DNA of 64,000 nt from Candidatus Colwellbacteria bacterium (GTDB lineage: Bacteria; Patescibacteriota; Minisyncoccia; UBA6257; Colwellbacteraceae), in the NCBI GenBank assembly GCA_016176525.1, contig JACOWZ010000003.1:459357-523356 (forward strand). The letters are read 5' to 3'. Below are positions 6,116 through 55,458 of this stretch, piece after piece; position 1 is the stretch's first letter; each line of letters starts with the position of its first letter. A model generated the notes under the pieces. It was not told the origin of the DNA. It saw only the letters and a list, made by a program, of their open reading frames with translations, and did no database searches. Both the position numbers and the translations under genes were made by a program.

Positions 6116-7203
6116 GGAGGACTGGAAAAATAGATTATTTGATTTTAGTGGCAGTTTTTTTGCTAATCGCCTTGGGTTTTTTGTTTCTAGCCTCTGCCTC
6201 ATCTGACTTAGGTAAGGTAAGGTTTGACAATGCATATTATTATATTTGGCGGCAGATTATATATGGAGCATCTGTTGGCTTAGTGGGCTTTTTTCTTGCA
6301 CTTAAAATTCCATACAAGAACCTAAAGCCTTACACATTTTATCTTCTTATCGCGAGTGTTGGATTGGTTGCACTTACTTTTACGCCACTTGGAATTGTAC
6401 TTGGTGGGGCTAGGCGCTGGTTGCAATTTGGCCCTTTTGTTTTTCAGCCTGCCGAGATTTTAAAATTTACTTTTATAATGTATCTGGCTGCGTGGCTTAG
6501 CAGTGAAAGAAAAAATCGCTCTAAAAGTTTTTATAACGGCTTTTTGCCGTTTATAGTTCTCTCCGGTACTATAGGCGGACTCTTGCTTCTACAGAGGTCA
6601 ACAAGCGCGGTTCTTATAACTATGCTCTCTGCGCTCTGCGTTTATTTTATAAGCGGCGCAAAATGGAGATATATTTTAGCGGTGTTCGGCTTAGGCGCGC
6701 TTGTGTTGCCTTTAGTAATTTATTTTACCCCATATAGATTAGAGAGAGTTCTTACTTTTCTTGACCCTGCACAAGATACATCAGGCGCAAGTTATCAGAT
6801 AGATAGGGCAAAAGTGACAATAGGTTCTGGTGGCTTTCTTGGAGTTGGATATGGTAATTCGGTAACCAAGCAATATTTGCCGGAGCGCATAGGGGACTCA
6901 ATTTTTGCGATAATTGCAGAAGAATTCGGCTTTGTAGGGGCGAGTTCTCTTATCCTTTTATATTCAGTTCTTGTTTTGCGCGGACTTATGGTTGCAAAAA
7001 ATATTGGAGAGCCCTTTGGCAGGCTTTTACTCGCAGGTATATCTATTATTATAGGTTTGCAAGCTTTTACGCATATTGGCGCTATATCTGGGGTAATACC
7101 CCTAACTGGTGTGCCGCTGCCGTTTATAAGCTATGGAGGCACTGCCCTTGCGGTGTTTATGATCGCTGCTGGGCTTATGTTAAATGTGACGAAGAGGGGG
7201 TAG
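6112..7203 (+). CDS. ftsW: SEDS-family cell division protein FtsW/RodA (peptidoglycan glycosyltransferase)
   Basis: 10-TM profile and the GARRWLQFGPFVFQPAEILK block typical of FtsW; sits next to murG. Confidence 0.8.
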   Translation: MRRTGKIDYLILVAVFLLIALGFLFLASASSDLGKVRFDNAYYYIWRQIIYGASVGLVGFFLALKIPYKNLKPYTFYLLIASVGLVALTFTPLGIVLGGARRWLQFGPFVFQPAEILKFTFIMYLAAWLSSERKNRSKSFYNGFLPFIVLSGTIGGLLLLQRSTSAVLITMLSALCVYFISGAKWRYILAVFGLGALVLPLVIYFTPYRLERVLTFLDPAQDTSGASYQIDRAKVTIGSGGFLGVGYGNSVTKQYLPERIGDSIFAIIAEEFGFVGASSLILLYSVLVLRGLMVAKNIGEPFGRLLLAGISIIIGLQAFTHIGAISGVIPLTGVPLPFISYGGTALAVFMIAAGLMLNVTKRG

Positions 7204-7210
7204 TTGCTTT

Positions 7211-7328
7211 CACCACCCACCCATACTCTACAAGTCACCGGCGTAATCCGCCGGCTGGCGGATTCGCCTTCTTCTCGCGCCGTCGCGCTCCGAAAATGAC
7301 TTTACGAGCATGGCTGGGCGGCTCATTA
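7211..7328 (+). repeat. copy 1 of a roughly 115-nt structured intergenic repeat (long imperfect outer inverted repeat enclosing two hairpins)
   Basis: shares the core AGTCACCGGCGTAA...CGCCTTCTTCTCGCGCCGTCGCGCTCCGAAAATGACT with the copies at 15357, 19243 and 54590; starts 8 nt after the ftsW stop. Confidence 0.8.
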
Positions 7329-7372
7329 AATCAACCTTTCTTTATTACACATTACCAATTACAATTTACTAA

Positions 7373-8509
7373 ATGCGTAAATTCCGGGTTTTAGTAACTG
7401 GAGGCGGCACAGGCGGGCATATTTTGCCGCTTATTGCTGTTATTGAAGAGCTTCAGATACTTGCTTCCTCATCCGGAGTGCCGTTAAAACTGCGTTATTT
7501 AGGGGCATATGGCACGTATAAAACGACTCTTGAGGCAAATGACGTTAAGGTTTGGAAGCTTGTTCCAAGCAAGCTTCGCAGATATTTTTCTTTGGAAAAC
7601 TTTATTGATTTCTTTAAGTTTTTTATAGGTTTGGTTCAGGCGCTTTGGTACGTTTTTTGGTTTATGCCGGATGTGCTTTTTTCCAAAGGCGGCCCAGGGG
7701 CATTGCCTGTTGTTGTAGCTGCTTGGTTTTACAGAGTGCCGATTGTGGTGCACGAGTCCGACAGTGTGCCAGGGCTAACCAACACTTTGAGTGCAAAGTT
7801 TGCAAAAACTATTACGCTTGGTTTTGAGGGAGCAAATGTTTATTTTAAGGGTAGGGGAGTGTATGTTGGCAATCCTGTGAGGCGCGGAATACTTTTAGGC
7901 GAACAGCGTTCGCAGAGCGCCTTAAAAGAGCTGTTTGGTTTTAATCCTGCTAAGCCTCTAATGCTTGTTTTTGGAGGGTCTCAAGGTTCTGTACGCATAA
8001 ACGATTTTGTTTTAGATAATTTGCCGCAGATTTTAGAAGTAACACAGATTTTGCACCAAACCGGCATAGAAAATTATAAAGATGTTAAAAATCAATCGGC
8101 GTTTGTTGTGGGAAGCGTCCGTGAGGATTTAAGGGGCGGGTATGCAGCGGTAGATTATTTTGACATTGGCATTAGAGACGCATATAGAGCCTCAGACGTT
8201 ATAATGGGCAGAGCCGGCGCCTCTGCGATAGCCGAGGCGGCAGCCTTTGGCAAGCCGATGATGCTTGTACCTCTGCCAGAGTCCGCAGGTGACCATCAAC
8301 GGCAAAATGCATATGAATATGCCAAAAGTGGCGGCGCGGTTGTACTAGAAGAAGAAAATCTATTGCCAAATTTGTTTATAAGCGCGCTGAAGGAAATATT
8401 AGAGAATAGTGAAAAATATACCACTATGAGTGAGGCTGCGAAGAATTATCACAAACAAAAGGAGGCGGCGCCTGCGATAGCTAAAATGATGTTGGGATAT
8501 TATAAATAA
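7373..8509 (+). CDS. murG: undecaprenyldiphospho-muramoylpentapeptide beta-N-acetylglucosaminyltransferase
   Basis: N-terminal VTGGGTGGHI.P motif and GT28 fold length. Confidence 0.9.
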   Translation: MRKFRVLVTGGGTGGHILPLIAVIEELQILASSSGVPLKLRYLGAYGTYKTTLEANDVKVWKLVPSKLRRYFSLENFIDFFKFFIGLVQALWYVFWFMPDVLFSKGGPGALPVVVAAWFYRVPIVVHESDSVPGLTNTLSAKFAKTITLGFEGANVYFKGRGVYVGNPVRRGILLGEQRSQSALKELFGFNPAKPLMLVFGGSQGSVRINDFVLDNLPQILEVTQILHQTGIENYKDVKNQSAFVVGSVREDLRGGYAAVDYFDIGIRDAYRASDVIMGRAGASAIAEAAAFGKPMMLVPLPESAGDHQRQNAYEYAKSGGAVVLEEENLLPNLFISALKEILENSEKYTTMSEAAKNYHKQKEAAPAIAKMMLGYYK

Positions 8510-9950: not shown

Positions 9951-11269
9951 AACGTGTTACATTCATTGCATTATTCATAATAATTGCGCTTTTTGGCAAA
10001 TCTGCTATTACTTTCGCCCAAACCTCTGCTGATGATTTAAGAAACTCAATAAATGAGAAAGTGCGTGAACTTGAGGAGCTTAATGCTCGGATACAAGAAA
10101 CCCAGCAGACTTTAAATCTTGTTGCGGGGCAGAAAAGAACCTTAAGCACTGAAATACGCAGATTTGACCAGACTATAAATCAGCTTAGTTTGAACATTCG
10201 CGCAAGTGAGGTGAATATTGATAAACTCGGGCTTGAACTTGAAAAGCTTGGCATAGAAATTGAAGATATTGAGCGTGGCATAGATTCAAGAAAAGCTTCG
10301 ATTGCAAGCAGTTTGAGACTTATGCAATTGCGCGACAAAGATGGACTTGTTGAAACCGTGTTTAAGTACGATAGTTTGGCAGACGGCTTGGCTGAAGTAC
10401 AGGCGCTAAATGATTTGCGTAACACCTTATCGTTGGATGTTGCGTTTTTAGACTCACTACACAGTGATTTAACCGAGGCGGCACAACTCACACAAGCGAA
10501 AAAGTCGGAAGTTGAGCTGGAGAGAATGAATTTAAGCAAAAGAAAATCTATAGTAGACGACCAGCGCGATGATAAGGCAGTACTTTTAAAGCAAACCCAA
10601 AATAAGGAGAGTGTTTACCAGGCGCAACTTGCAGAGTTAGAGGGTGAGCAGAGGAAGATTGCAGAGGAAATAGACAGAATTGAGAGCGAGTTACGCGCGA
10701 AATTTGATAAGGCGCTGCTACCCACGCCTGCACCTGGGGTTTTAAGCTACCCAATTAAAGATGTGCGCATTACCCAGGGCTATGGTCCGGCGAGTGTGGA
10801 AACAAGGCGTTTTTACAGCAACCACAATGGAATTGATTTTGGCGTGCCAACGGGTACGCCTATTTTCGCGGTTTCGGACGGTTTAGTTATTGCAATGGAC
10901 AACAATGACATTGGCGCATGGAAAAACTATCAATATGGCAGATATGTTCTTATACAGCACGATAATAATCTTTCTAGCCTTTACGCCCACTTATCTGGGT
11001 ATGCTGAAGGCGTTGGTGTGGGCAGTAGAGTAAAAAGAGGACAGGTTATAGGTTATTCTGGCGGGGGCCGTGGGGCATATGGATCTGGAGTTTCGCTTGG
11101 ACCTCATTTGCATTTTACGGTTTATTATTGTGGCACTACAGGTTGGTTGAAGGGCACATCTTTAGATGTGTTGCAAAATTCTAACCTTTGCGGACTTGTG
11201 GCTAACTTTAAAAATGCGGCCGGCAGCGTGCCGATTGGGGCCCACATTGACCCCTCACCTTACCTCTGA
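9947..11269 (+). CDS. M23-family metalloendopeptidase with N-terminal signal peptide and long coiled coil (EnvC/murein hydrolase activator-like)
   Basis: coiled-coil N-terminal half; C-terminal half carries HNGIDF, D..H and HLHF M23 motifs; start overlaps the gltX stop (ATGA). Confidence 0.8.
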   Translation: MKRVTFIALFIIIALFGKSAITFAQTSADDLRNSINEKVRELEELNARIQETQQTLNLVAGQKRTLSTEIRRFDQTINQLSLNIRASEVNIDKLGLELEKLGIEIEDIERGIDSRKASIASSLRLMQLRDKDGLVETVFKYDSLADGLAEVQALNDLRNTLSLDVAFLDSLHSDLTEAAQLTQAKKSEVELERMNLSKRKSIVDDQRDDKAVLLKQTQNKESVYQAQLAELEGEQRKIAEEIDRIESELRAKFDKALLPTPAPGVLSYPIKDVRITQGYGPASVETRRFYSNHNGIDFGVPTGTPIFAVSDGLVIAMDNNDIGAWKNYQYGRYVLIQHDNNLSSLYAHLSGYAEGVGVGSRVKRGQVIGYSGGGRGAYGSGVSLGPHLHFTVYYCGTTGWLKGTSLDVLQNSNLCGLVANFKNAAGSVPIGAHIDPSPYL

Positions 11270-11312
11270 CCACAAAATAACCACGAGCTTTGTGGTCAGA
11301 GGTTATATTCCG
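11263..11312 (+). terminator. rho-independent terminator-like hairpin after the M23 peptidase gene
   Basis: perfect 14-bp inverted repeat CCTCTGACCACAAA / TTTGTGGTCAGAGG followed by a T-containing tail. Confidence 0.6.
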
Positions 11313-11337
11313 GGTTAGTATGGTATAATTTATAAAA

Positions 11338-11487
11338 ATGGAATTTCTCTTTGAGCTTTGGAACGACATAAAAAACTTGTTTGACCCTATTGTCGTAGTT
11401 GTAAAAGGCTTGTTTGCAATCTTAGCCAAGATCTTCTCTTTTTTTGCTAGTTTTATAACAAATCTACTCTCTGGCGGCGGCGCCTAA
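11338..11487 (+). CDS. small hydrophobic protein (49 aa), possibly leaderless
   Basis: ORF MEFLFELWNDIKNLFDPIVVVVKGLFAILAKIFSFFASFITNLLSGGGA; extended -10 TGgTATAAT ends about 9 nt before the ATG; no homology claim. Confidence 0.3.
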   Translation: MEFLFELWNDIKNLFDPIVVVVKGLFAILAKIFSFFASFITNLLSGGGA

Positions 11488-11494
11488 ACTTGGC

Positions 11495-11522
11495 TTGACA
11501 AACTTTTAAAAGAAGGTATAAT
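11495..11522 (+). promoter_or_regulatory. consensus sigma-70-like promoter (TTGACA-N16-TATAAT)
   Basis: exact TTGACA at 11495-11500 and exact TATAAT at 11517-11522; the GC-rich non-coding locus starts 2-7 nt downstream. Confidence 0.7.
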
Positions 11523-11523
11523 A

Positions 11524-12045
11524 GGGGACACTTATAAAGTTCTTTAGTATACCTAATTCGCAGCAGAAAAGAAGAGAGGATAGTATACGAATTACGACAC
11601 TTTGACTAGATAAATGAATTTACGAAATTGTCTTTTCTTTCCTGCTGCGGACAGGTTCTGTCTAGGGCGCATGGGTAACTAATCCCATCGCAAGCATCCT
11701 AGACAGGAATGTTTTTAAGACATCATAGCGAGCCGAGCGCGCTTTGGAGGGTTTCTAGAACTCTCTGGAGAAACAAGTACTCTGGCCTGATGGAATTGCG
11801 GGCTTTTGCGAGCCTGCGAAACCAATATCAAGGGATGTGATGTCGCCTGGGTGAACCGTAACGCCCTTGGTTACCCCAAACCCACGCTCGCGAAAAATTG
11901 CGAGTGTGGGATAGATCTTAATAGCCCCGTGGAGAGTTCTGTCTGTAAGTGCTTGCGCCGTGCATCCCAAATGACGGGCAGGTGGGGGTGCAGACAGACA
12001 GAATATCCCGGGGCACTTTACTTTTTATATAGTGTCAGAAAAGAT
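11524..12045 (+). ncRNA. candidate large structured non-coding RNA (about 520 nt) of unknown class
   Basis: no credible ORF on either strand; visibly higher GC than flanks; many hairpins including G-U pairs that only work on the + strand (GCGGGC/GCCUGC; CGCUCGC/GCGAGUG); 5' end GACACUUAUAAAG can pair with the 3' end CUUUUUAUAUAGUGUC. Confidence 0.5.
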
Positions 12046-12131
12046 ATATTGTGCGACGCTATATATTTTAAAAAGAAGATACTCCCCTGTGCAGATTTAT
12101 ATATTTATATAGGTTTGGTTTTAGCATATAA

Positions 12132-15079: not shown

Positions 15080-15352
15080 ATGGCACATACAAAATCTGGT
15101 GGTTCAACAAAATTAGGTAGAGATTCACGGGCACAACGGCTAGGTGTAAAGGTTTATGACGGCGAGCCGATTAGCGCCGGAGAAATTATATTGCGCCAGA
15201 GAGGAACTAAGGTTATCCCGGGAACGAATGTTAGGCGCGCCGGCGACGACACTCTCTATGCCGCAAAGCAGGGCACAGTAAAATTCTTCTCAAAAAAGAA
15301 AACTCGTTTCGACGGCAACCGCCGCTACATTAAAGTTGTTTCTGTAGTCTAA
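15080..15352 (+). CDS. rpmA: 50S ribosomal protein bL27
   Basis: [23 protein letters not shown]...RQRGTK.IPG. Confidence 0.9.
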
Positions 15353-15356
15353 TAAC

Positions 15357-15470
15357 TCACCAAACCCACAGTATCTCGAGTCACCGGCGTAAAATTCTTG
15401 CTGAATTTTCGCCTTCTTCTCGCGCCGTCACGCTCCGAAAATGACTCTCGACACAATGGGTTTGGTTCGT
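15357..15470 (+). repeat. copy 2 of the structured intergenic repeat
   Basis: about 95% identical to copy 4 and shares the core with copies 1 and 3; starts 5 nt after the rpmA stop, in a convergent gap before rplI. Confidence 0.8.
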
Positions 15471-15476
15471 AAAAGA

Positions 15477-15917
15477 TTAGGCCGAGACTACCTCTATTTT
15501 AACTTCTCCTACTACTCCCCTGCCTAGGTTTAATATAATTCTGTGAGTTCCGGTTGTTTTTATGTGGCCTTCTGGGAATTCTACTTCTGCGTTTTCCAGA
15601 CCAAACTTTGTGAGTCTATCTTTTATTTCTATATCTCTAATTGAGGCGAATAATTTGCCCTTATCCCCTACCTTTACTTTTATAACTATGGGTTTATTTT
15701 TTGTTTCTTCTTCTAGGGTTTTAAGTTTTGTGCGTAGTTCTTCTACCTCTTTATTAATTACCTCGCGCATATTAGCCACTTCTTTTAGCGCTGCACTGGT
15801 TGCGGGTTTAGCTAAACCTTTAGGTATCAGAAAATTTCTAGCATAACCGTCAGATACATTCTTAATGTCGTTAATTCTTCCAACTCCCTTTATATCTTTT
15901 TGTAATACTACTTTCAT
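15477..15917 (-). CDS. rplI: 50S ribosomal protein bL9
   Basis: [28 protein letters not shown]. Confidence 0.9.
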
Positions 15918-18520: not shown

Positions 18521-18613
18521 ACCATTTCTCCTTATGTGCAAACTTTCAGATTTTAAAAGGACATTCCTAAAGCCGCAAACGGCTTTGGAATTACCCTTTC
18601 ACCGTCTTCAGCT

Positions 18614-18743: not shown

Positions 18744-19220
18744 ATGAATATAAATACAAAAATACTTAATGCGCGGGATAAAAAGGATGCCAAGTTTTTG
18801 CGCAAAAAGACAGCTAAGTTTGACTTTAAAAAACACACTAAGAGTGAGATAACAAAGTTAGTGTCGCAAATGAAGGCTATAATGCTCAGTGCTAACGGCC
18901 AAGGGCTTGCAGCAAACCAAATAGGGCTGAATTCTTCTGTTTTCGTTGCGCAGGTTGACGGCAAATTTTATGCTGTTTTCAACCCCACAATCACTAAAGC
19001 AACGGAGGAAAAAGACACTTGGCAAGGCGAGGGGTGTTTGAGTTTGCCTGGAGTAACGGCGCCAACATACTCACCCGCTAAACTTACGCTTGAAGGCCAA
19101 GACAAAAATGGCAAGAAATTAAAGATAAAGGCTTGGGGAATGCTCGCGCTCACCTTCCAGCACGAGGTAGACCATCTCAATGGCAAATTATTTATTGATC
19201 GCAGGGTTGTAAATTCATAG
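18744..19220 (+). CDS. def: peptide deformylase
   Basis: GLAANQIG, EGCLSLPG and HEVDHLNG motifs. Confidence 0.9.
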   Translation: MNINTKILNARDKKDAKFLRKKTAKFDFKKHTKSEITKLVSQMKAIMLSANGQGLAANQIGLNSSVFVAQVDGKFYAVFNPTITKATEEKDTWQGEGCLSLPGVTAPTYSPAKLTLEGQDKNGKKLKIKAWGMLALTFQHEVDHLNGKLFIDRRVVNS

Positions 19221-19242
19221 TATCTTACGTTTGTCTGCTTCG

Positions 19243-19358
19243 CCATCCAGCCATACTCTACAAGTCACCGGCATAAAATTCTTACTGAATTTTTGCCTTT
19301 TTCTCGCCTTGTCAGGCTCCGAAGATGACTTTACGAGCATGGCTGGGCGGCTCATTAA
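19243..19358 (+). repeat. copy 3 of the structured intergenic repeat
   Basis: same outer arms as copy 1 (CCATACTCTACAAGTCA ... TGACTTTACGAGCATGGCTGGGCGG); both internal hairpins present with covarying stems; lies between def and fmt. Confidence 0.8.
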
Positions 19359-19387
19359 CTTTTACGAACTCTGATATAATCTTTGTT

Positions 19388-20233
19388 ATGAAATATATTT
19401 TTTTCGGAACTCCGCGGTTTGCGGAAATTGTCTTAAAAAAGCTGATTGATTCTGGTATGTTGCCAGTTGCGCTTGTGTGCAACCCCGACAAGCCGGTTGG
19501 CCGCAAAAAGGTTATTACTCCGCCACCCACCAAAAAACTACTCACTACTAACTACTCACTACCAACTGTTATTTTGCAGCCAGAAAAATTGGACGACGAG
19601 TTTCTAACTAGACTAAAGAAACTGAAGGCTGATTTCTATGTCGTTGCGGCTTATGCAAAGATTTTACCGAAAAAATTACTCCAGATTCCGCACCTTGGCG
19701 TAATCGGTGTGCATCCCTCGCTTTTGCCAAAGTATAGAGGTGCAACGCCAATACAGTCTGCAATTTTATCTGGTGGAGAGAAAACCGGCATTTCGCTTTA
19801 TTTAATAGACGAAGGAATGGACAGCGGCTCAATTCTCGCCCAGCGAGAATTAGAAATAGTAGATGTAGATTATCGAAAATTAGAAGAAGAATTAGCAGAA
19901 CTTGCTGGAGCAATGCTCGTAGAAACACTTCCAAAATTTGTTAAGGGTGAAATAAAACCCATGCCGCAAGATGATTCTAGAGCAACTTATACGCGCAAGT
20001 TTAAAACAGAAGATGGGTTTATTGATTCCGAGGCTTTGCGTAAGGCAGAAGCCGGTGATAAAAAGCTCGCAAAAGAAATATACAATAAAATTCGCGCCCT
20101 TAATCCCGAGCCGGGTGTTTACACAATAAAGAACGGCAAGCGTATTAAACTACTAAAAGCAAAGCTCGCCGAAAGTGGCGAGCTTATACTTTTAGAAATC
20201 CAGAAAGAAGGAGGTAAACCTCAAACTATCTAG
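19388..20233 (+). CDS. fmt: methionyl-tRNA formyltransferase (start moved to the ATG at 19388)
   Basis: MKYIFFGTPRFA...NPDKPVGR Fmt N-terminus; the tracked ORF start at 19325 would read through the repeat element; a TATAAT sits at 19371-19376. Confidence 0.85.
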   Translation: MKYIFFGTPRFAEIVLKKLIDSGMLPVALVCNPDKPVGRKKVITPPPTKKLLTTNYSLPTVILQPEKLDDEFLTRLKKLKADFYVVAAYAKILPKKLLQIPHLGVIGVHPSLLPKYRGATPIQSAILSGGEKTGISLYLIDEGMDSGSILAQRELEIVDVDYRKLEEELAELAGAMLVETLPKFVKGEIKPMPQDDSRATYTRKFKTEDGFIDSEALRKAEAGDKKLAKEIYNKIRALNPEPGVYTIKNGKRIKLLKAKLAESGELILLEIQKEGGKPQTI

Positions 20234-26834: not shown

Positions 26835-26964
26835 TCCCTTTTACCTTTATGCCTTGTTCATGTATTGGGCCCACAACAGATACAGCGCGAGATCTATCTT
26901 CAAAAGATGAGTCTCGCGCTGATGTAATAGTAGAAGTTAGTGTAGAAGAATACGTTGAAGTAAA

Positions 26965-27498: not shown

Positions 27499-27574
27499 AC
27501 GCGAGCGGAAGGATTTGAACCTTCGGGTTCCAGTCTCCGGTAGACTGGCGTCTTGCCAAGCTAGACTACGCCCG
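27499..27574 (-). tRNA. tRNA with non-canonical anticodon arm (CCG-containing loop; would read CGG/Arg if a CCG anticodon is used)
   Basis: manual cloverleaf: acceptor GCGGGCG/CGCUCGC, D-stem GUCU/AGAC, T-arm GAAGG-UUCAAAU-CCUUC; the anticodon arm CCAGU-CUACCGGAG-ACUGG is 19 nt, either a 9-nt loop or a 7-bp stem with a 5-nt loop; CCA not encoded. Confidence 0.7.
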
Positions 27575-28112
27575 CAAAGAGCTCCAGGCACGCTTAGGAG
27601 GGAGGGATATTTCGGGGTAAGTGTGCCCTGGAGCTGGGTTATGTTTTAATGTGCACCCCTTCGTGCGGTTCAAGCCGGTTTGGCTCGTTTGATGGTTGTC
27701 ACTTGATTGTCTGCTGTTTGGGTTGTTAACCAAGGGGGTTTCCAGAGAAACTCCCATTTTGTTTGAGACAATACCTGGACAATCGCATGCACGCACGAAG
27801 GGGGTTGTTCCACTTAAGGAACTTCGTCCTATCGACACCGGCTTGTCGCCGAGTGTATTTTACGTCGCTCGGACGAATGAGCGAACAACTCTAGCTTTGT
27901 TGGCATCCGCCAACACCTTTTCCCGAGTCAATACTCGGTACTTTTGCGTATTCCAGAGAAGACCATGCTAGGCGGCTTGTCTTCTCTCCGATCTCGTAGT
28001 ACGTAGTCCATCTGGTTTGGTGCTTTTACCGTTTCTCGATGGAGTAGAAACAGTAGCGAGCCCTTTACGGCTCACATTCAATTTATATCATAAAGCCCAA
28101 TTTATGGCAAAT
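27575..28112 (-). ncRNA. candidate structured non-coding region (about 540 nt) directly 5' of the tRNA on the same strand; class unknown
   Basis: no plausible ORF; elevated GC; 12-bp stem AGCTCCAGGCAC/GTGCCCTGGAGCT and many further hairpins; strand uncertain. Confidence 0.35.
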
Positions 28113-34393: not shown

Positions 34394-34466
34394 TGCCAGA
34401 TCGTCTAGGGGTAGGACGTCGCTCTCTGGAAGCGAAAACCGGGGTTCGAATCCCTGTCTGGCAACA
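34394..34466 (+). tRNA. tRNA-Gln (CUG)
   Basis: manual fold: acceptor UGCCAGA/UCUGGCA, D-stem GUCU/GGAC, anticodon arm UCGCU-CUCUGGA-AGCGA with anticodon CUG, T-arm CGGGG-UUCGAAU-CCCUG. Confidence 0.75.
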
Positions 34467-39672: not shown

Positions 39673-39737
39673 AAGACTTTATTTTAACATTGCTTGCGTT
39701 TAATGCATAAATATGGTAAATATAGCGCGCAGGTAAT

Positions 39738-40098
39738 TCAGGTAATAGCTCTGCAAACTTCCGTAATTTTAACCGAAAAGACAGCTCTTTCCAAAGGCGA
39801 GTTTGTAGGGAGGAAAGTCCGGACACCTAGCAACAAGTACAGGTTAACGGCCTGCCGCAGTAATGCGAGAGGTGCGAACAGTGACGCCCCGTGGCGAAAG
39901 CTTATGGGGGAGCCCTATCTCAAGCTAGTCGGCTCAATTCGGTGATAGAGATAAAAAAGCCGAAGTGAAACGTTTCTAAATCCTTACCGGGTGCAAGACC
40001 GTGCTCCGATAAACATCGGAGAGAGTCGCTAGAGCCCGCGAGTAATCTCGGGCCCAGATAAATTGTTGCCAAATACAGAATCCGGCTTATGAATTACC
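39738..40098 (+). ncRNA. rnpB: RNase P RNA (bacterial type A)
   Basis: GGAGGAAAGUCCGGAC (P4 5' strand), ACAGAAUCCGGCUUA (P4 3' strand), P1 pairing AGGUAAUUCA/UGAAUUACCU. Confidence 0.85.
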
Positions 40099-40107
40099 TG
40101 CATATAA

Positions 40108-40133
40108 AAACCCCGTGTATAACGGGGTTTTTA
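40108..40133. terminator. bidirectional rho-independent terminator shared by rnpB (+) and rnhA (-)
   Basis: AAAAACCCCGTgtataACGGGGTTTTTAT, A-run before and T-run after. Confidence 0.75.
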
Positions 40134-40568
40134 TATGCCCAAGTCTTGTGCTTGGTTTACGAGTCTGTCTGCTTCTTTGTTTAATTCTCGCCGCACGTGT
40201 TTAAATTCAACTTTGGGAAAATCTTGTTTTAAATTCCACACTTCTATAAAAAGCGGCTGAAGGTTTTGGTCTTTTATTTTATATTGTCCCGTCATTTGTT
40301 TGTATATAAGTTCGCTGTCTGTGCGCAACTCTATTTCTGAATTCTCGCGTTTTTTGCCTAAAAGTTGTTTTGTCTTTTTTAGTGCAAATATAACAGCCTT
40401 GTATTCTGCAACATTGTTTGTAGCAATGCCGATGTACTCGCTGTATTCTTTGTGCATTCTTGGAGCTTGCGAATCTGTGTTTTCTTCTTCTATAACAACG
40501 CCGATTGAAGCAGGGCCAGGGTTGCCTCTTGCCCCGCCATCTGTGTAGATGATAATTTTATGTTCCAT
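40131..40568 (-). CDS. rnhA: ribonuclease HI
   Basis: TDGGARGNPGPA, E..A..AL and DS.....QM.G.YK blocks. Confidence 0.85.
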   Translation of the reverse strand: MEHKIIIYTDGGARGNPGPASIGVVIEEENTDSQAPRMHKEYSEYIGIATNNVAEYKAVIFALKKTKQLLGKKRENSEIELRTDSELIYKQMTGQYKIKDQNLQPLFIEVWNLKQDFPKVEFKHVRRELNKEADRLVNQAQDLGI

Positions 40569-47348: not shown

Positions 47349-48389
47349 CTATATATTTACTACTCTAGGTTGCTGTTGATTTAGCAGTATATTTTTATAT
47401 GTTGGCATATCTTCTATTATAATCCCCAACCCTCTTACCGTGCAGGTTAATGGATCTTCAACAACTGCGGTTGCAACAGTTATTTCAGATGCAATGTATT
47501 TATCCAAACCCCTTAGTTTGCTTGTACCGCCGGTTAAATAAATTCCTCTTTTTAGAATATCTCCCACAAGCTCCGGAGGAGATTCTTCTATAAGAGTTTT
47601 TATCGCTTCTGTTATGCCTTTTAGCGATTTTTGGAGCATAGCTCTAACTTGAGTGTCGCGCAGGGTTATTTCTTTTGGAAGACCGGTACTAACGTTTCTG
47701 CCGCGTATTGTAATTTCCAATTTTTCCTGCAGAGGTATGGCAGAGCCAATATTCACTTTTATTTCTTCGGCTGTAGGTTCGCCTATAAGCACGCCAAATT
47801 CGTCTTTTATGCCCTTGATAATTTCTTCGTTGAACTTTTCTCCGGCTATCTTAAGGCTTTTTGATTTTACAGTTCCACCAACCGATATTATGGATATCTC
47901 TGTTGTTCCCCCACCCATGTCTATAATCATATTGGAGGTGGGTTCTTCTATGGGTAGCCTTGCCCCAATTGCAGCTGCAAGCGGCGCTTCTACCAAAAAT
48001 ACTCTGCCTGCTCCGGCGGAGACCACCGCGTCTTCTACAGATTTCCGCTCTACCTCTGTAAGATTTGTAGGCACGCTTATTGCCGCTGCATTAAAGCGCG
48101 AGAAAAAACCGCCTTTCCCGGCTTTCCGCAGAAAGTATTTTAATATTTCTTCAGTCATTTCAAAATCAGAAACCACGCCGTGGATTAGCGGTTTAATAAG
48201 CTTAATATGCTCCGGCGTGCGGTCCAGCATTTTTTTGGACTCCGCGCCGATGTTTAATATCTGGTTTGTCCTTTGGTTTACCGCAACCATTGTGGGTTCG
48301 TTTATAACTATTCCCTGTCCGCTCAAATAAAGCAGAGTGTTTGCGGTGCCTAAATCTACCCCAACGTTTTTATAAAAGTTTCTTAACAT
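47349..48389 (-). CDS. mreB: rod shape-determining protein MreB (actin-like ATPase)
   Basis: VGVDLGTANTLLY phosphate-1 motif; about 346 aa. Confidence 0.9.
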   Translation of the reverse strand: MLRNFYKNVGVDLGTANTLLYLSGQGIVINEPTMVAVNQRTNQILNIGAESKKMLDRTPEHIKLIKPLIHGVVSDFEMTEEILKYFLRKAGKGGFFSRFNAAAISVPTNLTEVERKSVEDAVVSAGAGRVFLVEAPLAAAIGARLPIEEPTSNMIIDMGGGTTEISIISVGGTVKSKSLKIAGEKFNEEIIKGIKDEFGVLIGEPTAEEIKVNIGSAIPLQEKLEITIRGRNVSTGLPKEITLRDTQVRAMLQKSLKGITEAIKTLIEESPPELVGDILKRGIYLTGGTSKLRGLDKYIASEITVATAVVEDPLTCTVRGLGIIIEDMPTYKNILLNQQQPRVVNI

Positions 48390-51973: not shown

Positions 51974-52980
51974 TAATTTTTGTTCAAAAGTGCCCTCTTA
52001 TATACTCCTAGGTGATCTAATATTATTCCCGAGCCCTTGGCAACGCATAAGATTGGATCTTCCGCTATATAAGACTGCACGCCAAGCAGCCGTTTGAAGA
52101 ATTCTTCAATGTTGCGGAGCTGCGCGGAACCGCCAGAGACTATTATCCCCTTTTCCATTACGTCTGCCACAAGTTCCGGCGGAGTTTCGTTAAAAACCGC
52201 TTGTATAGAGCTTATTATTTCAGATAAGAGGGGGTTTAGGGCTTCTGCTATTTCGTTGGATGTAACGCTTAAATCTCTTGGAAGGCCGGAGGCTATGTCT
52301 CTGCCTCTGAATTTAAATTCAATTTTGCTTTTTAAGGGCAGTGCCGAGCCGGCGCCTATTTTTATTGCTTCTGCGGTTTGTTCTCCGATAGAAATTCCGT
52401 ATTTTTTCTTTACATAGTTCATTATAGCCTCGTCAAACTTATTTCCAGCAACTCTTAAGCTCGCCCATTTTACTATTCCACCGAGAGAAATTACTGCGAC
52501 TTCAGATGTGCCGCCACCAATATTGATTATCATATTTCCGGAAGAAGAGTTTATCGTTATGCCGGCGCCTAGCGCTGCCATAAGCGGTTCGCGGACAACA
52601 TATGCATTTTTTGCGCCTGCTTCCATTGCCGCATTTATCACTGCTCTGCGTTCTGTTGCAGTAATTCCGGCAGGCACGGATATTACAACCTCTGGCCTGA
52701 ATAAATTAAACTTTCCGACAGCTTTTCCTATAAAATAGCGCAACATTGCGCGTGTTATGTAGTAGTCTGCTACAACGCCATCTTTAAGGGGCTTGTATGC
52801 GGCAATGTCGCCCGGAGTTCTCCCTATCATTTCTTTCGCCTCGCGTCCGACGGCGAGCACCGAGTTGTCGGGAATATTTAGAGCTACAATGGTGGGCTCG
52901 TTTATAACAAAACCCTTGCCGGGTACAAAAACTACAGTATTTGTGGTGCCTAAATCTATGCCGATTCTTCGCGTTAACAT
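51973..52980 (-). CDS. second MreB/Mbl-like actin homologue
   Basis: IGIDLGTTNTVVF phosphate-1 motif; paralogous to the 47349..48389 gene. Confidence 0.8.
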   Translation of the reverse strand: MLTRRIGIDLGTTNTVVFVPGKGFVINEPTIVALNIPDNSVLAVGREAKEMIGRTPGDIAAYKPLKDGVVADYYITRAMLRYFIGKAVGKFNLFRPEVVISVPAGITATERRAVINAAMEAGAKNAYVVREPLMAALGAGITINSSSGNMIINIGGGTSEVAVISLGGIVKWASLRVAGNKFDEAIMNYVKKKYGISIGEQTAEAIKIGAGSALPLKSKIEFKFRGRDIASGLPRDLSVTSNEIAEALNPLLSEIISSIQAVFNETPPELVADVMEKGIIVSGGSAQLRNIEEFFKRLLGVQSYIAEDPILCVAKGSGIILDHLGVYKRALLNKN

Positions 52981-53032: not shown

Positions 53033-54535
53033 CTAGAATAATTTGATTTTTGCTCCTAGAGAATTGAGTTTTTTGTGTATGTCTTCGTACCCGCGGTTTA
53101 TTGAATATACGTCGCGTAGAATTGAAGTACCCGGTGCGGCGAGCATTGCCAAAAGTATTATCGCTGCAGGACGAAGCGCAGGCGGGGCAACTATTTCTGC
53201 GGGCTTAAATTTAGTCGGCCCGATTATTTGCACTCTATGCGGGTCTATAAGATTTATTTCTGCACGCAGTTTAGAGAGTTCAGTATAGTGTATAGCTCTG
53301 TTTTCGTATATCCAATCGTGTATTAGAGTTGTCCCTTCTGCAATACATGCAATTGGCACAAAAAAGGGCAGGTTGTCTATGTTTAGGCCCGGATATGGCA
53401 AGGGGTGAATTTTATCATCCGGCGCACGGAGTTTAGACGGGTATGTTTTAATATCTACTAAATTAGTATATCCGTTTTTAGCTTTATAGGTTTTAGAGAC
53501 CTTAAATTTAAAGCCCATTTTTTCCAGTTTTAAAAGCTCCACGCCTAAAAAGTCTATAGGGCATCTTTTAATTTCAATTGACGAGCTGGTTAGCACAGCC
53601 GCAGTAATGTATAGCATAGAGTCAATGGGGTCTTCGCTTATGTAATACTCAATATTTTTCTTTATTTCAGGGTTGCCATGTATCGTTAAATTATGTGTTC
53701 CTATCCCCTCTATTCTTACACCGCATTTTTCCAAAAACCAGCAAAGTTCTTGCACTTGATAGTTAGATGAGGCAAAGGTTATAGCTGTTGTTCCATTTAT
53801 GCGCGCTGCGGCCATAATGGCGCTCCCGGTTGCGGTATCTCCGGTTTCGTACATTACTATATTTGCGGGAGTTAGTTTATTTTTAACTGTAATTTTGTAG
53901 TTTTTACTGTCTGTTTCTATATCTACGCCAAGATTTTGCAGGGCATAAAAATGCGGGCGCACAGTACGTTTGCCAAGCCTGCACCCGCCGGCATGCGGCA
54001 GTTTAAAACTCTTTAGTTTATGTATTAGCGGCGCTATTAAAAGAATGGCGCTGCGGGTTTTAATTGCTGATTCAACATTAAGGTTTTTTAAGTCGATTTT
54101 TTTAGGTGGAACGATTTCTACACTCCGCGGAGCTATCCATTTTATTTTTGCACCGATACTTATTAAAACTTCTATTATTCGGTTTACTTCTTCAATTTTA
54201 GGCACATCGTGCAAAGTAGTTTTGCCTTCGTTCAAAAGTGATGCGCAGAGCAAAAAAACGGCGCCGTTTTTGGAAGAGTTTGTGGTAACCGAGCCGGAGA
54301 GCGTAGTTGGGCCCTCTATCTTAAAATTTATAGATTTTGGGGTGGCGATAAGTTCACGGTTGAATATGCCGCTTATTTTTACGAGTGTCTCCGCACTTAA
54401 GTTTTGTTTGCCGGCTTCAATTCGGGCAACTGCGCTTTGTGTTGTGTGTAGCGCGCGCGCGAGTTCGTCTTGGGTCATTCCGCGGCTGGCGCGCAGTCCG
54501 GCTATAAAATGCCCTAGTTTTTTAATGTCAGCCAT
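53033..54535 (-). CDS. murA: XRE-type HTH domain fused to UDP-N-acetylglucosamine 1-carboxyvinyltransferase (MurA)
   Basis: N-terminal Cro/C1-type HTH (GMTQDELARALHTTQSAVARIEAGKQNLS); MurA blocks SKNGAVFLL and active-site LPHAGGCRLGKRTVRPH. Confidence 0.7.
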   Translation of the reverse strand: MADIKKLGHFIAGLRASRGMTQDELARALHTTQSAVARIEAGKQNLSAETLVKISGIFNRELIATPKSINFKIEGPTTLSGSVTTNSSKNGAVFLLCASLLNEGKTTLHDVPKIEEVNRIIEVLISIGAKIKWIAPRSVEIVPPKKIDLKNLNVESAIKTRSAILLIAPLIHKLKSFKLPHAGGCRLGKRTVRPHFYALQNLGVDIETDSKNYKITVKNKLTPANIVMYETGDTATGSAIMAAARINGTTAITFASSNYQVQELCWFLEKCGVRIEGIGTHNLTIHGNPEIKKNIEYYISEDPIDSMLYITAAVLTSSSIEIKRCPIDFLGVELLKLEKMGFKFKVSKTYKAKNGYTNLVDIKTYPSKLRAPDDKIHPLPYPGLNIDNLPFFVPIACIAEGTTLIHDWIYENRAIHYTELSKLRAEINLIDPHRVQIIGPTKFKPAEIVAPPALRPAAIILLAMLAAPGTSILRDVYSINRGYEDIHKKLNSLGAKIKLF

Positions 54536-54589: not shown

Positions 54590-54702
54590 CTCCCCAAACC
54601 CACAGTATCTCGAGTCACCGGCGTAAAATTCTTACTGAATTTTCGCCTTTTTCTCGCACCGTCGTGCTCCGAAGATGACTCTCGACACAATGGGTTCGGT
54701 TC
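54590..54702 (+). repeat. copy 4 of the structured intergenic repeat
   Basis: about 95% identical to copy 2; ends 4 nt from the map stop but on the opposite strand. Confidence 0.8.
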
Positions 54703-54705
54703 GCT

Positions 54706-55458
54706 TTATTCCGTAACCACTCTGCTGCCTTTTTCTGTAATCAATATTGTGTGCTCAAAATGAGCGGAGGGGCTGTTGTCGGCTGTTGCGAAGCTGTCGT
54801 CCGGCAGTTGGACAATTCTGCCGGTGCTAATAGATGTCATCGGTTCTATGGCAAGCACCATTCCGGGTCTTAACTTAATGCCTGCGCCGGGCTTGCCAAA
54901 GTTGTAAATTACAGGCTCTTCGTGAATTTCTATGCCCACGCCGTGGCCCGTTAAGCCTTCTATTATGTGGAATCCTTTATTAGATATTGTGCGTTCTATT
55001 GCAAAGCCTATATCACCCAAGGTTTTGCCCGGCTTTGCGGCACGTATCGCTTCCACAAGCGCTCTTTTTGTTGTGCTTATAAGGTCTAGGTTTTTTGCCG
55101 TAACTTTGCCTATAGGCACGGTTACTGCAGCGTCTGTTATGCCACCCTGCCAATCTACACCTATGTCTATTTTTAAGACATCGCCGGATTTTAAGAAATA
55201 TTTTTTAGGCACGCCGTGCACTACAACCTCGTTTACGGATGCACAAATACTTGCTGGAAATGGAACTTTAGCTCCGTACGGCCTATAGCCTAAAAAAGCT
55301 GGCTTTGCACCCAACTCTTTTATCTGCTTATGTGCCATGTTATCCAGACTAATCAGATCTATACCTTCTTTTGCGGCATTCTTAAGACTTTTTAGTACAG
55401 CAGAGAGAATTTTGCCGGATTTTTCGATTTTCTCTATTTGTTTTTCTGTTTTTATCAT
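54706..55458 (-). CDS. map: type I methionine aminopeptidase
   Basis: pita-bread fold blocks; HGVGIEIHEEP. Confidence 0.9.
   Translation of the reverse strand: MIKTEKQIEKIEKSGKILSAVLKSLKNAAKEGIDLISLDNMAHKQIKELGAKPAFLGYRPYGAKVPFPASICASVNEVVVHGVPKKYFLKSGDVLKIDIGVDWQGGITDAAVTVPIGKVTAKNLDLISTTKRALVEAIRAAKPGKTLGDIGFAIERTISNKGFHIIEGLTGHGVGIEIHEEPVIYNFGKPGAGIKLRPGMVLAIEPMTSISTGRIVQLPDDSFATADNSPSAHFEHTILITEKGSRVVTE

What the first reader, a model, noticed from the sequence alone, without database searches (positions are those of the whole stretch)
7211..7328. Four-copy family of roughly 115-nt structured repeats, each abutting a stop codon, with compensatory changes preserving two hairpins
Seen in sequence: related elements sit at 7211-7328, 15357-15470, 19243-19358 and 54590-54702. 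All have the same + orientation, regardless of neighbouring gene direction. Each has a long imperfect outer inverted repeat, for example CAAACCCACAGTATCTCGAGTCA ... TGACTCTCGACACAATGGGTTTG. The outer arms enclose an identical core CACCGGC ... CTCCGAA(A/G)ATGAC and two internal hairpins whose stems differ between copies but stay complementary. Hairpin 1 is GGCGTAAAATTC/GAATTTTCGCC in copies 2-4 but GGCGTAATCCGCC/GGCGGATTCGCC in copy 1. Hairpin 2 is GCGCC..GCGC, GCCTT..AGGC, GCAC..GTGC or GCG..CGC. That pattern of covariation implies selection on structure, as RNA or cruciform DNA, rather than on sequence. Two subfamilies differ in the outer arms (copies 1 and 3 versus 2 and 4). Every copy starts or ends 4-25 nt from a stop codon (ftsW, rpmA, def, and map on the opposite strand). 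This resembles a REP/BIME/MITE-like mobile hairpin element. An alternative is a 3'-UTR stability or termination module or a small ncRNA. I do not recognise it as a described RNA family.
Basis: seen in the sequence. Interest (0 to 1): 0.75.

Follow-up and report, generated by a model that had tools for sequence, protein, structure and literature searches.

The report
Structured intergenic hairpin repeat, Patescibacteria
Four copies of an undescribed non-coding repeat sit between housekeeping genes of a tiny Candidatus Colwellbacteria genome; each has a conserved ~62-nt core that folds into a three-way junction at the tip of a long hairpin, and the family behaves like a horizontally spread selfish element rather than a gene-specific regulator.

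Summary
The window holds exactly four copies (7212-7322, 15359-15466, 19242-19351, 54594-54699), all in one orientation. None matches an Rfam family.

The minus strand folds far better, because the stem mismatches are G.U there and A.C on the plus strand. The fold is a long outer stem (P1) capped by a three-way junction:
- P2 is UUC-GGA-[4 bp, GACG loop]-GA-GAA.
- An AA linker follows.
- P3 is a hairpin with a bulged A.

Covariation is strong: 94.7% of cells pair, 23 of 35 pairs change on both sides, and 0 of 500 shuffles reach this.

Relatives occur only patchily, in distant Patescibacteria whose Def and Fmt proteins are 31-33% identical to the window's. In them the core is near-identical while the arms are local, fast-evolving and up to about 45 bp long. 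The element is absent from the same sites in the nearest relatives. Assemblies break at the core, and arms and cores recombine. Its orientation is unrelated to neighbouring transcription.

Best reading: a new interspersed, mobile-like structured repeat occupying intergenic hairpins, recognised as a folded single strand. RNA versus single-stranded DNA, and the mobilising enzyme, remain unresolved. It fails the defining tests for MITE, REP and attC membership.

The parts
7212..7322 (-). Copy 1: full hairpin element (arm type A, core variant alpha), between ftsW (stop at 7203) and murG (start at 7373). The unit shared with copy 3 extends to about 7205-7329.
   Evidence: (87.8 bits)
7236..7298 (-). 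Copy 1 conserved core: P1 top CAUU/GGUG, P2 and P3. P3 has a unique distal stem, AAUCCGCC/GGCGGAUU.
   Evidence: The Logan contig L108 of the same genome ends at 7238, three bases into the plus-strand start of this core.
7272..7294 (-). Copy 1 P2: UUC-GGA-GCGC-GACG-GCGC-GA-GAA. It comprises P2a, a conserved GGA/GA internal loop, and P2b with a GACG loop.
7240..7268 (-). Copy 1 P3 hairpin with a conserved bulged A four pairs from its base.
15359..15466 (-). Copy 2: full hairpin element (arm type B, core variant alpha). It fills the spacer between the convergent genes rpmA (stop at 15352) and rplI (minus strand, stop at 15477).
   Evidence: (87.8 bits)
15382..15443 (-). Copy 2 core (P2 at 15417-15439, P3 at 15386-15413).
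19242..19351 (-). Copy 3: full hairpin element (arm type A, core variant beta), between def (stop at 19220) and fmt. The Formyl_trans_N match begins at residue 22 of the ORF at 19325-20233, so the real fmt start is probably the ATG at 19390.
   Evidence: (88.8 bits)
19266..19327 (-). Copy 3 core (P2 at 19301-19323 with P2b GCCU/AGGC; P3 at 19270-19297 with base GGCA/UGCC).
54594..54699 (-). Copy 4: full hairpin element (arm type B, core variant beta). It lies downstream of map (minus strand, stop at 54706) and upstream of the HTH-MurA-like gene (minus strand, start at 54535).
   Evidence: (91.1 bits)
54616..54677 (-). Copy 4 core (P2 at 54651-54673 with P2b GCAC/GUGC; P3 at 54620-54647).

Best explanation
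This is a previously undescribed family of interspersed, non-coding, structured repeats of Patescibacteria (Parcubacteria/Paceibacteria). It behaves as a selfish, horizontally spread, non-autonomous element.

Anatomy. Each copy is a conserved ~62-nt core. On the window's minus strand the core folds into a three-way junction:
- P1 top is CAUY/GGUG with an invariant U.G pair.
- P2 is UUC-GGA-[3-4 bp, mostly a GACG loop]-GA-GAA.
- An AA linker follows.
- P3 is an 11-12 bp hairpin with a bulged A.
The core sits at the tip of a 23-45 bp palindromic stem whose sequence is largely site-specific.

Shown:
- The fold is maintained by compensatory change on one strand.
- Within a genome the core is the repeated or homogenised unit.
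- The arms evolve fast but stay paired.
- Arms and cores recombine.
- Sites are gained and lost between relatives.
- Orientation is independent of neighbouring transcription.

Inferred. New copies arise in two ways: by copying whole hairpins into intergenic spacers, and by replacement or conversion of the hairpin tip. The location is tolerated because these genomes already use long perfect intergenic hairpins of terminator type, and an insertion at the tip leaves such a hairpin intact. The folded junction is the recognition structure for a trans-acting factor that propagates or processes the element. I lean slightly towards RNA over single-stranded DNA as the folded molecule. The enzyme is unknown.
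For: Copy number and structure:
- Exactly four copies in the window and no Rfam family.
- Covariation on 13 sequences: 94.7% of cells paired, 23 of 35 pairs with double changes, 0 of 500 shuffles as high. Slid controls give only 36-53% paired.
- More divergent members keep the architecture with covarying P2a, P2b, P3 and P1 top: L088 (x2), L110a, L122 and L124.

Strand asymmetry:
- RNA and DNA folds both favour the minus strand.
- Transition mismatches in the arms are 21 G.U against 4 A.C (p=0.0009). Counting one copy per arm family gives 14 against 3 (p=0.013).
- This runs against the local mutation bias, since third-codon skews show the plus strand carries the G/T-rich leading-strand sequence.

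Mobile-like behaviour:
- The core is near-identical in genomes whose Def and Fmt are 31-33% identical to the window's.
- An exact-pattern scan of 185,579 species genomes found only three other genomes. The metagenome scan found one locus.
- The element is absent at the syntenic ftsW-murG and rpmA-rplI sites of the nearest relatives. The rpmA-rplI site there carries a plain 19-bp hairpin.
- At the trxB site of the ELA106 clade the element is present at 83% or higher TrxB identity, inferred from contig breaks for L109 and L122. It is flipped and diverged in L110. L123 has a coreless 27-bp hairpin, and more distant relatives lack the element.
- Contigs end exactly at the core boundary.
- The four ELA106 paralogues have identical cores, but their arms are unrelated apart from the L020/L046 pair.
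- In the window all four combinations of arm type and core variant exist.
- Orthologous pairs show no core substitutions, while the arms carry compensated substitutions and compensated indels.

Setting:
- Gene contexts include convergent, divergent, sense and antisense arrangements.
- Plain long hairpins are common at gene ends in these genomes.
Against: - No transposase, reverse transcriptase or other partner gene was seen, although only about 64 kb of this genome and short loci of the others were available.
- There is no target-site duplication and there are no terminal repeats, so the insertion mechanism is undefined.
- Compensated changes at orthologous sites could reflect a host-level function. 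They could also arise by DNA-level palindrome correction without any selection on a fold.
- The within-genome identity of cores needs gene conversion or repeated replacement, which is inferred and not shown.
- The sample is small: about 20 copies from about 9 genomes.
- No expression data exist.
- Keeping about 110-nt selfish repeats in a contig of 0.64 Mb is unusual for such a streamlined organism.
Confidence: 0.5

Rival explanations
1. A host-beneficial RNA module at transcript ends. The long stem would act as a terminator, or as a block to 3'-exonucleases or an RNase III site. The junction at the tip would bind a protein. On this view it is a decorated version of the plain intergenic hairpins, comparable to the SPRITE terminator-like repeat.
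For: - All four window copies, and most related copies, abut at least one gene 3' end; several sit between convergent genes.
- A relative has a plain hairpin at the orthologous rpmA-rplI site.
- In the ELA106 clade the core is bracketed by A-tracts and 3-6 U, as in a bidirectional intrinsic terminator.
- The arms stay paired through compensated substitutions and indels at orthologous sites.
Against: - Copies 1 and 3 are antisense to both neighbouring genes. At informative co-directional sites the orientation is roughly random.
- Three independent copies lie between divergent genes (L021a, L059/L063, L110a).
- The window copies have no U-tract and no terminator call.
- The patchy phylogenetic distribution, together with a near-identical core across lineages whose Def and Fmt are 31-33% identical, does not fit a vertically inherited regulatory part.
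- The element is absent at the same sites in close relatives.
Confidence: 0.2
2. A non-autonomous single-stranded-DNA transposon of the IS200/IS605 (PATE) or REP/RAYT type. A Y1 HUH transposase would cut at the core boundaries, and the core would insert into single-stranded hairpin loops.
For: - No terminal inverted repeats and no target duplication.
- Hairpin-rich and strand-asymmetric.
- Orientation is independent of transcription.
- Runs of one orientation: 4 of 4 in the window, 3 of 3 on one ELA106 contig, 2 of 2 in L021.
- Only the core is repeated and it sits at hairpin tips.
- A 'solo core' without arms exists at L124.
Against: - P2 and P3 are unlike each other, whereas IS200/IS605 ends carry similar hairpins (from my own knowledge of the family).
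- No shared flanking tetranucleotide.
- No Y1 transposase family appears among the precomputed Pfam hits of any locus fetched.
- Skew at third codon positions puts the well-folding strand on the leading-strand template. That is the opposite of the rule for IS608 and ISDra2 (plus my own knowledge).
- L110 and L088 each hold two copies in opposite orientation a few kb or less apart.
Confidence: 0.15
3. Independent small RNA genes in several copies, acting in trans.
For: - A conserved junction with invariant unpaired purines, a bulged A and a U.G pair.
- Arm type A carries a -10-like TTTAAT/GTTAAT just upstream on the minus strand.
Against: - No promoter-like or terminator-like site beside any copy.
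- No upstream motif is shared between arm types.
- The arms differ from copy to copy.
Confidence: 0.05
4. A chance similarity or a simple local duplication with no structural meaning.
For: None beyond the small number of copies in the window.
Against: - 0 matches expected by chance.
- Related copies occur in other genomes.
- Covariation far exceeds the controls.
Confidence: 0.01

Closest known systems
[quoted passage not shown]
   Same: Both are interspersed, non-coding, hairpin-forming repeats, biased to intergenic regions near 3' ends and between convergent genes. A structural role at the RNA level has been suggested for both (review PMC3184786).
   Different: This element has a conserved asymmetric three-way junction at the hairpin tip and site-specific arms. 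The window copies have no U-tract. Its orientation is not tied to transcription. It occurs in Patescibacteria.
MITEs such as Correia/NEMIS, ERIC and RUP
   Same: Size is about 100-160 nt. Both are multi-copy, intergenic, non-autonomous and able to fold into a long hairpin (PMC3184786).
   Different: MITEs are defined by conserved terminal inverted repeats around a variable core, plus target-site duplications. Here the centre is conserved and the arms vary, and there is no duplication.
REP/BIME/REPIN elements mobilised by RAYT transposases, and IS200/IS605-derived PATEs
   Same: They lack terminal repeats and target duplications, act in a strand-specific way as single-stranded hairpins, and are dispersed in intergenic regions (my own knowledge).
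   Different: In REPINs the arms are conserved and the loop varies. PATEs carry two similar end hairpins. Neither feature is found here, and no Y1 or RAYT gene was seen in the sequence available.
Neisseria REP2 repeats
   Same: They are 120-150 bp intergenic repeats without terminal inverted repeats, with two internal stem-loops (PMC3184786).
   Different: [quoted passage not shown] This element carries none of these and is enclosed by a long outer stem.
Integron attC sites (for example the Vibrio cholerae repeats)
   Same: They are about 120-nt imperfect palindromes just after stop codons, all in one orientation, and are active as a folded single strand.
   Different: There are no R''/R' core sites. 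The flanking genes are syntenic housekeeping genes, not cassettes. In attC sites the outer ends are conserved and the tip varies, the reverse of what is seen here.

Membership tests
Any Rfam 15 RNA family (including hammerhead, twister, pistol, hatchet, Y RNA, 6S and riboswitches) | A covariance-model match at or near the family's gathering score | tested here: not met
   The whole window at gathering thresholds gives only RNase P and two tRNAs. Copy 2 searched at E<=10 gives one 12-bit chance hit, to C0299.
MITE | Terminal inverted repeats conserved among copies and shared with a parent insertion sequence | tested here: not met
   Outer arms differ between copies and between genomes. Among the related genomes only L020/L046 and L021a/b share arm sequence, and in the window only the pairs c1/c3 and c2/c4 do.
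MITE | Target-site duplication flanking each copy | tested here: not met
   No direct repeat at the borders of any of the four copies.
MITE | Small, non-coding, multi-copy, and absent from some orthologous sites | tested here: met
REP/BIME/REPIN | Short conserved palindromic arms (REP units) with a variable spacer | tested here: not met
   Conservation is highest in the central core and lowest in the arms.
REP/BIME/REPIN | A RAYT (Y1) transposase gene in the same genome | not testable with these tools
   Only 64 kb of the 644,793-bp contig was available. No Y1 family appears in the precomputed Pfam lists of the fetched loci.
IS200/IS605-derived PATE | Two similar subterminal hairpins and a conserved flanking tetra- or pentanucleotide target | tested here: not met
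   P2 and P3 are dissimilar. The flanks share no motif.
IS200/IS605-derived PATE | The active (folding) strand lies on the lagging-strand template | tested here: inconclusive
   Third-codon skews make the plus strand the leading-strand sequence. The better-folding minus strand is therefore the leading-strand template. The inference is indirect and rests on four copies.
Integron attC | R'' (RYYYAAC) and R' (GTTRRRY) core sites at the ends | tested here: not met
   Neither motif occurs in or within 10 nt of any copy, on either strand.
Integron attC | Copies separate mobile gene cassettes next to an integrase | tested here: not met
   The neighbours are ftsW, murG, rpmA, rplI, def, fmt and map. 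The ftsW-murG and rpmA-rplI arrangements are syntenic with relatives that lack the element.
Intrinsic (Rho-independent) terminator | A G+C-rich hairpin followed directly by a U-tract | tested here: not met
   No terminator-like call at any window copy. Copies in the ELA106 clade do have 3-6 U after the core on both strands, so this feature is met only in part of the family.
Structured RNA (generic) | Helices supported by compensatory changes, with G.U pairs on one strand | tested here: met
   Whether the molecule is RNA rather than single-stranded DNA was not testable.

The most novel reading that the evidence does not exclude
The core is a new kind of small mobile unit. It would be a folded single-stranded three-way junction of about 62 nt that specifically colonises, replaces and flips at the tips of long intergenic palindromes. 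It would spread between distant Patescibacteria through an enzyme not yet linked to any known repeat class. Alternatively, it is a new protein-binding or catalytic RNA motif carried by such hairpins.
Probability: 0.2. Interest if true: 0.8.

Novelty: new variant of a known kind. Interest (0 to 1): 0.55.

Why it matters
Patescibacteria have some of the most reduced bacterial genomes, and I found no description of interspersed repeats or structured non-coding elements in them in four full-text literature searches.

This family has three uses:
- It is a clean, covariation-supported structural motif with an inverted conservation pattern: conserved tip, free arms. It could lead to a new mobilising or RNA-binding protein.
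- It is a marker of horizontal exchange between distant lineages of this group.
- It explains contig breaks in their metagenome assemblies.

It also shows how long perfect intergenic hairpins in these genomes evolve: quickly, yet staying paired.

Tried and rejected
Searches with negative results:
- Rfam at gathering and at permissive thresholds found nothing.
- Two covariance models with filters off found no further or degenerate copies in the window.
- Viral contigs hold no true copy. Three core patterns were scanned, and the loci from the two later patterns were also checked with the model.
- The idea that the variable arms are guide- or spacer-like was tested with exact 18-21-mers from three arms. 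None matches IMG/VR, and the arms have no other match in the window.
- Sigma-70 promoter and U-tract terminator scans around each copy gave nothing above the shuffled expectation.
- attC boxes, a GTAG REP signature and target duplications are absent or incidental.

Uninformative attempts:
- Homology between the copy 2 arms and the plain hairpin at the same site in a relative is not significant (p=0.32).
- Extending the window through edge proteins failed. One look-up returned a contig that itself breaks at copy 1, and the other protein is not on record.
- Most hits of the genome and metagenome pattern scans were chance matches, in the genome scan mostly to G+C-rich genomes.

Explanations considered and set aside:
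- A terminus of replication between the copies was rejected, because third-codon skews have the same sign for genes on both strands.
- Mutation bias as the cause of the G.U asymmetry was rejected for the window on the same evidence.

Full report
**Observation.** The four elements are present as described. An exact core pattern matches the window four times with none expected. Two covariance models run without filters find exactly these four copies at 86-91 bits, and the next hits (13-15 bits) are plain hairpins. All copies share one orientation.

The outer arms form two types: A in copies 1 and 3, B in copies 2 and 4. The flanking genes are FtsW, MurG, L27, L9, Def, Fmt, Map and an HTH-MurA-like protein. 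Gaps to stop codons are 6-21 nt, because each element nearly fills its spacer. The organism is a Candidatus Colwellbacteria MAG with a contig of 644,793 bp.

**Structure and strand.** Both strands can draw the same shape, but the minus strand is much more stable:

| Strand | RNA fold energy (kcal/mol) | z-score |
|---|---|---|
| Minus | -56 to -70 | -8.2 to -8.8 |
| Plus | -40 to -50 | -4.5 to -7.6 |

DNA energy parameters give the same ranking.

On the minus strand the element has these parts:
- a long stem P1;
- a conserved P1 top, CAUY/GGUG, with an invariant U.G pair;
- P2, which is UUC-GGA-[4 bp, GACG loop]-GA-GAA;
- an AA linker;
- P3, an 11-12 bp hairpin with a bulged A four pairs from its base.

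In a 13-sequence alignment 94.7% of cells pair, 23 of 35 pairs change on both sides, and no shuffle out of 500 reaches the observed values. Slid controls give 36-53% pairing.

Transition mismatches in the arms are 21 G.U against 4 A.C on the minus-type strand (p=0.0009). Counting one copy per arm family gives 14 against 3 (p=0.013). There is no Rfam match, even at E<=10.

**The family elsewhere.** An exact 22-base gapped pattern scanned over 185,579 species genomes gave true relatives in only three genomes:
- MAG ELA106, four copies;
- bin Ki1-1-6m_bin-1343, two copies;
- a Candidatus Parcubacteria MAG, two copies.

A metagenome scan gave one locus, L088, with two diverged copies plus partial fragments. 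Contigs fetched through TrxB homologues added L110 (two copies), L122, and an arm-less "solo core" in L124. Viral contigs hold none.

The divergent members keep the architecture while P1 top, P2a, P2b and P3 covary. The GGA/GA (GCA/GA in L088B) internal loop is kept in every member except the decayed L110b, and the bulged A in all but L110b, L060 and L122; the purine-rich linker varies (AA, CA, GG) and the GACG loop persists in most.

ELA106 and Ki1 are very distant from the window organism: their Def and Fmt are 31-33% identical to the window's. Yet their P2 and junction differ from the window's by one or two bases.

**Evolutionary behaviour.**
- *Window genome.* All four combinations of arm type (A/B) and core variant (alpha, CAUU...GAAGAAG; beta, CAUC...GAAAAAG) occur. 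Arms and cores have therefore recombined.
- *ELA106 paralogues.* The four paralogues have identical 61-nt cores. Their arms are unrelated apart from one pair.
- *ELA106 versus Ki1.* Orthologous sites have about 90% identical flanking genes and no core substitutions. Their arms carry compensated substitutions and compensated indels.
- *Nearest Colwellbacteria* (FtsW about 60% identical). They keep the gene order but lack the element. Their ftsW-murG spacers are 63-92 nt; no hairpin scored in either, and the sequences read show no obvious one. Their rpmA-rplI spacer holds a plain perfect 19-bp hairpin.
- *Assembly breaks.* Three independent assemblies break exactly at the core boundary.

At the trxB/ispD site of the ELA106 clade the state tracks relatedness:

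| Locus | TrxB identity to ELA106 | State at the site |
|---|---|---|
| L109 | 95% | Contig ends at the core boundary |
| L110 | 84% | 38-bp perfect stem; core flipped and diverged |
| L122 | 83% | Contig ends at the core boundary |
| L123 | 82% | 27-bp perfect hairpin without the core |
| L112, L113, L124, L125 | 77-79% | Element absent at this site (one has a plain A/T-tract terminator) |

These genomes are rich in plain long perfect hairpins at gene ends.

**Context.** Copies occur between convergent, co-directional and divergent genes. At informative co-directional sites the orientation relative to transcription is mixed, and copies 1 and 3 are antisense to their operons. No promoter-like or terminator-like signal accompanies the window copies.

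Third-codon skews on the plus strand are G>C and T>A for genes on both strands. The whole window is therefore one replichore, with the plus strand as the leading-strand sequence. Two things follow. The G.U excess on the minus strand runs against the local mutation bias. The well-folding strand is the leading-strand template, which does not fit the IS200/IS605 rule.

**Interpretation.** The data best fit an interspersed, selfish, non-autonomous structured repeat. Its conserved tip is the unit that is copied or homogenised, and its arms are only required to pair. It lives where long intergenic hairpins are already tolerated.

Selection on one folded strand is shown. Whether that strand acts as RNA or as single-stranded DNA is not resolved, and neither is the enzyme that propagates it. 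I lean slightly towards RNA, for two reasons. The junction has invariant unpaired purines, a bulged A and a U.G pair. The replication-strand test also goes against the single-stranded-DNA transposon model.

The rivals are:
- a host terminator or stability module, weakened by orientation, divergent-gene sites and patchy distribution;
- a Y1-type single-stranded-DNA transposon, weakened by dissimilar hairpins, no partner gene seen and the wrong strand;
- stand-alone sRNA genes, which have no transcription signals.

**Comparison and novelty.** In lifestyle the element resembles SPRITE, Correia/ERIC-type MITEs, REP/REPIN and Neisseria REP2 (review PMC3184786). It fails the defining tests for MITE (terminal repeats, target duplication), REP/REPIN (conserved arms), PATE (paired end hairpins) and attC (R boxes, cassettes). 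Four full-text literature searches gave no description of it. I therefore rate it a new variant of a known kind, with moderate interest.

**Limits.** The sample is about 20 copies from about 9 genomes. Collection scans were exact-pattern only, so divergent members are under-sampled. Only 64 kb of the host genome was available. There is no expression evidence. DNA-level palindrome correction could mimic part of the arm covariation.

Noticed in passing
window 39730-40104 (+): Bacterial RNase P RNA class A (125 bits). It has a roughly 40-nt insertion in the first hairpin and is followed at once by a perfect bidirectional terminator-type hairpin at 40099-40139.
   Followed up: partly
window 27499-27576 (-) and 34394-34465 (+): tRNA-Arg(CCG) and tRNA-Gln(CTG).
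   Followed up: no
window 11262-11303, 18559-18596, 26883-26921, 40099-40139: Plain long hairpins with 11-17-bp near-perfect stems, most at gene ends, most without a U-tract after the stem. They appear to be this genome's usual intergenic hairpins.
   Followed up: partly
window 11270-12131, especially 11557-11651: An ORF-free stretch of about 860 nt. It contains a roughly 95-nt hairpin with a stem of about 20 bp (one mismatch) (GCAGCAGAAAAGAAGAGAGG.../...CUUUUCUUUCCUGCUGC) around an unrelated inner segment. There is no Rfam match. It may be another structured element.
   Followed up: partly
window 1-64000: Third-codon skews show the plus strand is the leading-strand sequence throughout. About 65% of coding bases lie on the minus strand, so these genes are head-on to replication, which is unusual.
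   Followed up: partly
window 48277-48358 and 52877-52958: An 82-nt direct repeat, 74% identical, inside two minus-strand genes of 346 and 335 aa. The genes are probably paralogues.
   Followed up: no
window 53033-54535 (-): A 500-aa protein that fuses an N-terminal HTH_3 domain to an EPSP-synthase/MurA-type domain.
   Followed up: no
L088 2381-2780: Two diverged copies in opposite orientation, 130 nt apart. Between them are two tandem fragments truncated at the 3' end (a 5' arm plus the start of the core), and a further 1.2 kb without long ORFs follows. This looks like a hot spot of rearrangement.
   Followed up: partly
L124 6318-6376 (-): A 'solo core' with P2 and P3 but no outer stem. Twenty bases of its P3 are identical to the P3 of the Parcubacteria copies in L021.
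   Followed up: partly
L123 4306-4382: A perfect 27-bp hairpin at the orthologous trxB/ispD site with a 23-nt unrelated tip instead of the core. It is either the pre-insertion state or the result of core loss.
   Followed up: partly
L125 5984-6074: A G+C-rich (74%) hairpin with a branched tip that scores 29 bits with the second model. The opposite strand folds slightly better. It may be a distant relative or a separate family.
   Followed up: no
L108, L109 and L122 contig ends: Short-read assemblies of three different organisms end exactly at the boundary of the core. The element is therefore a practical cause of fragmentation in Patescibacteria MAGs.
   Followed up: yes
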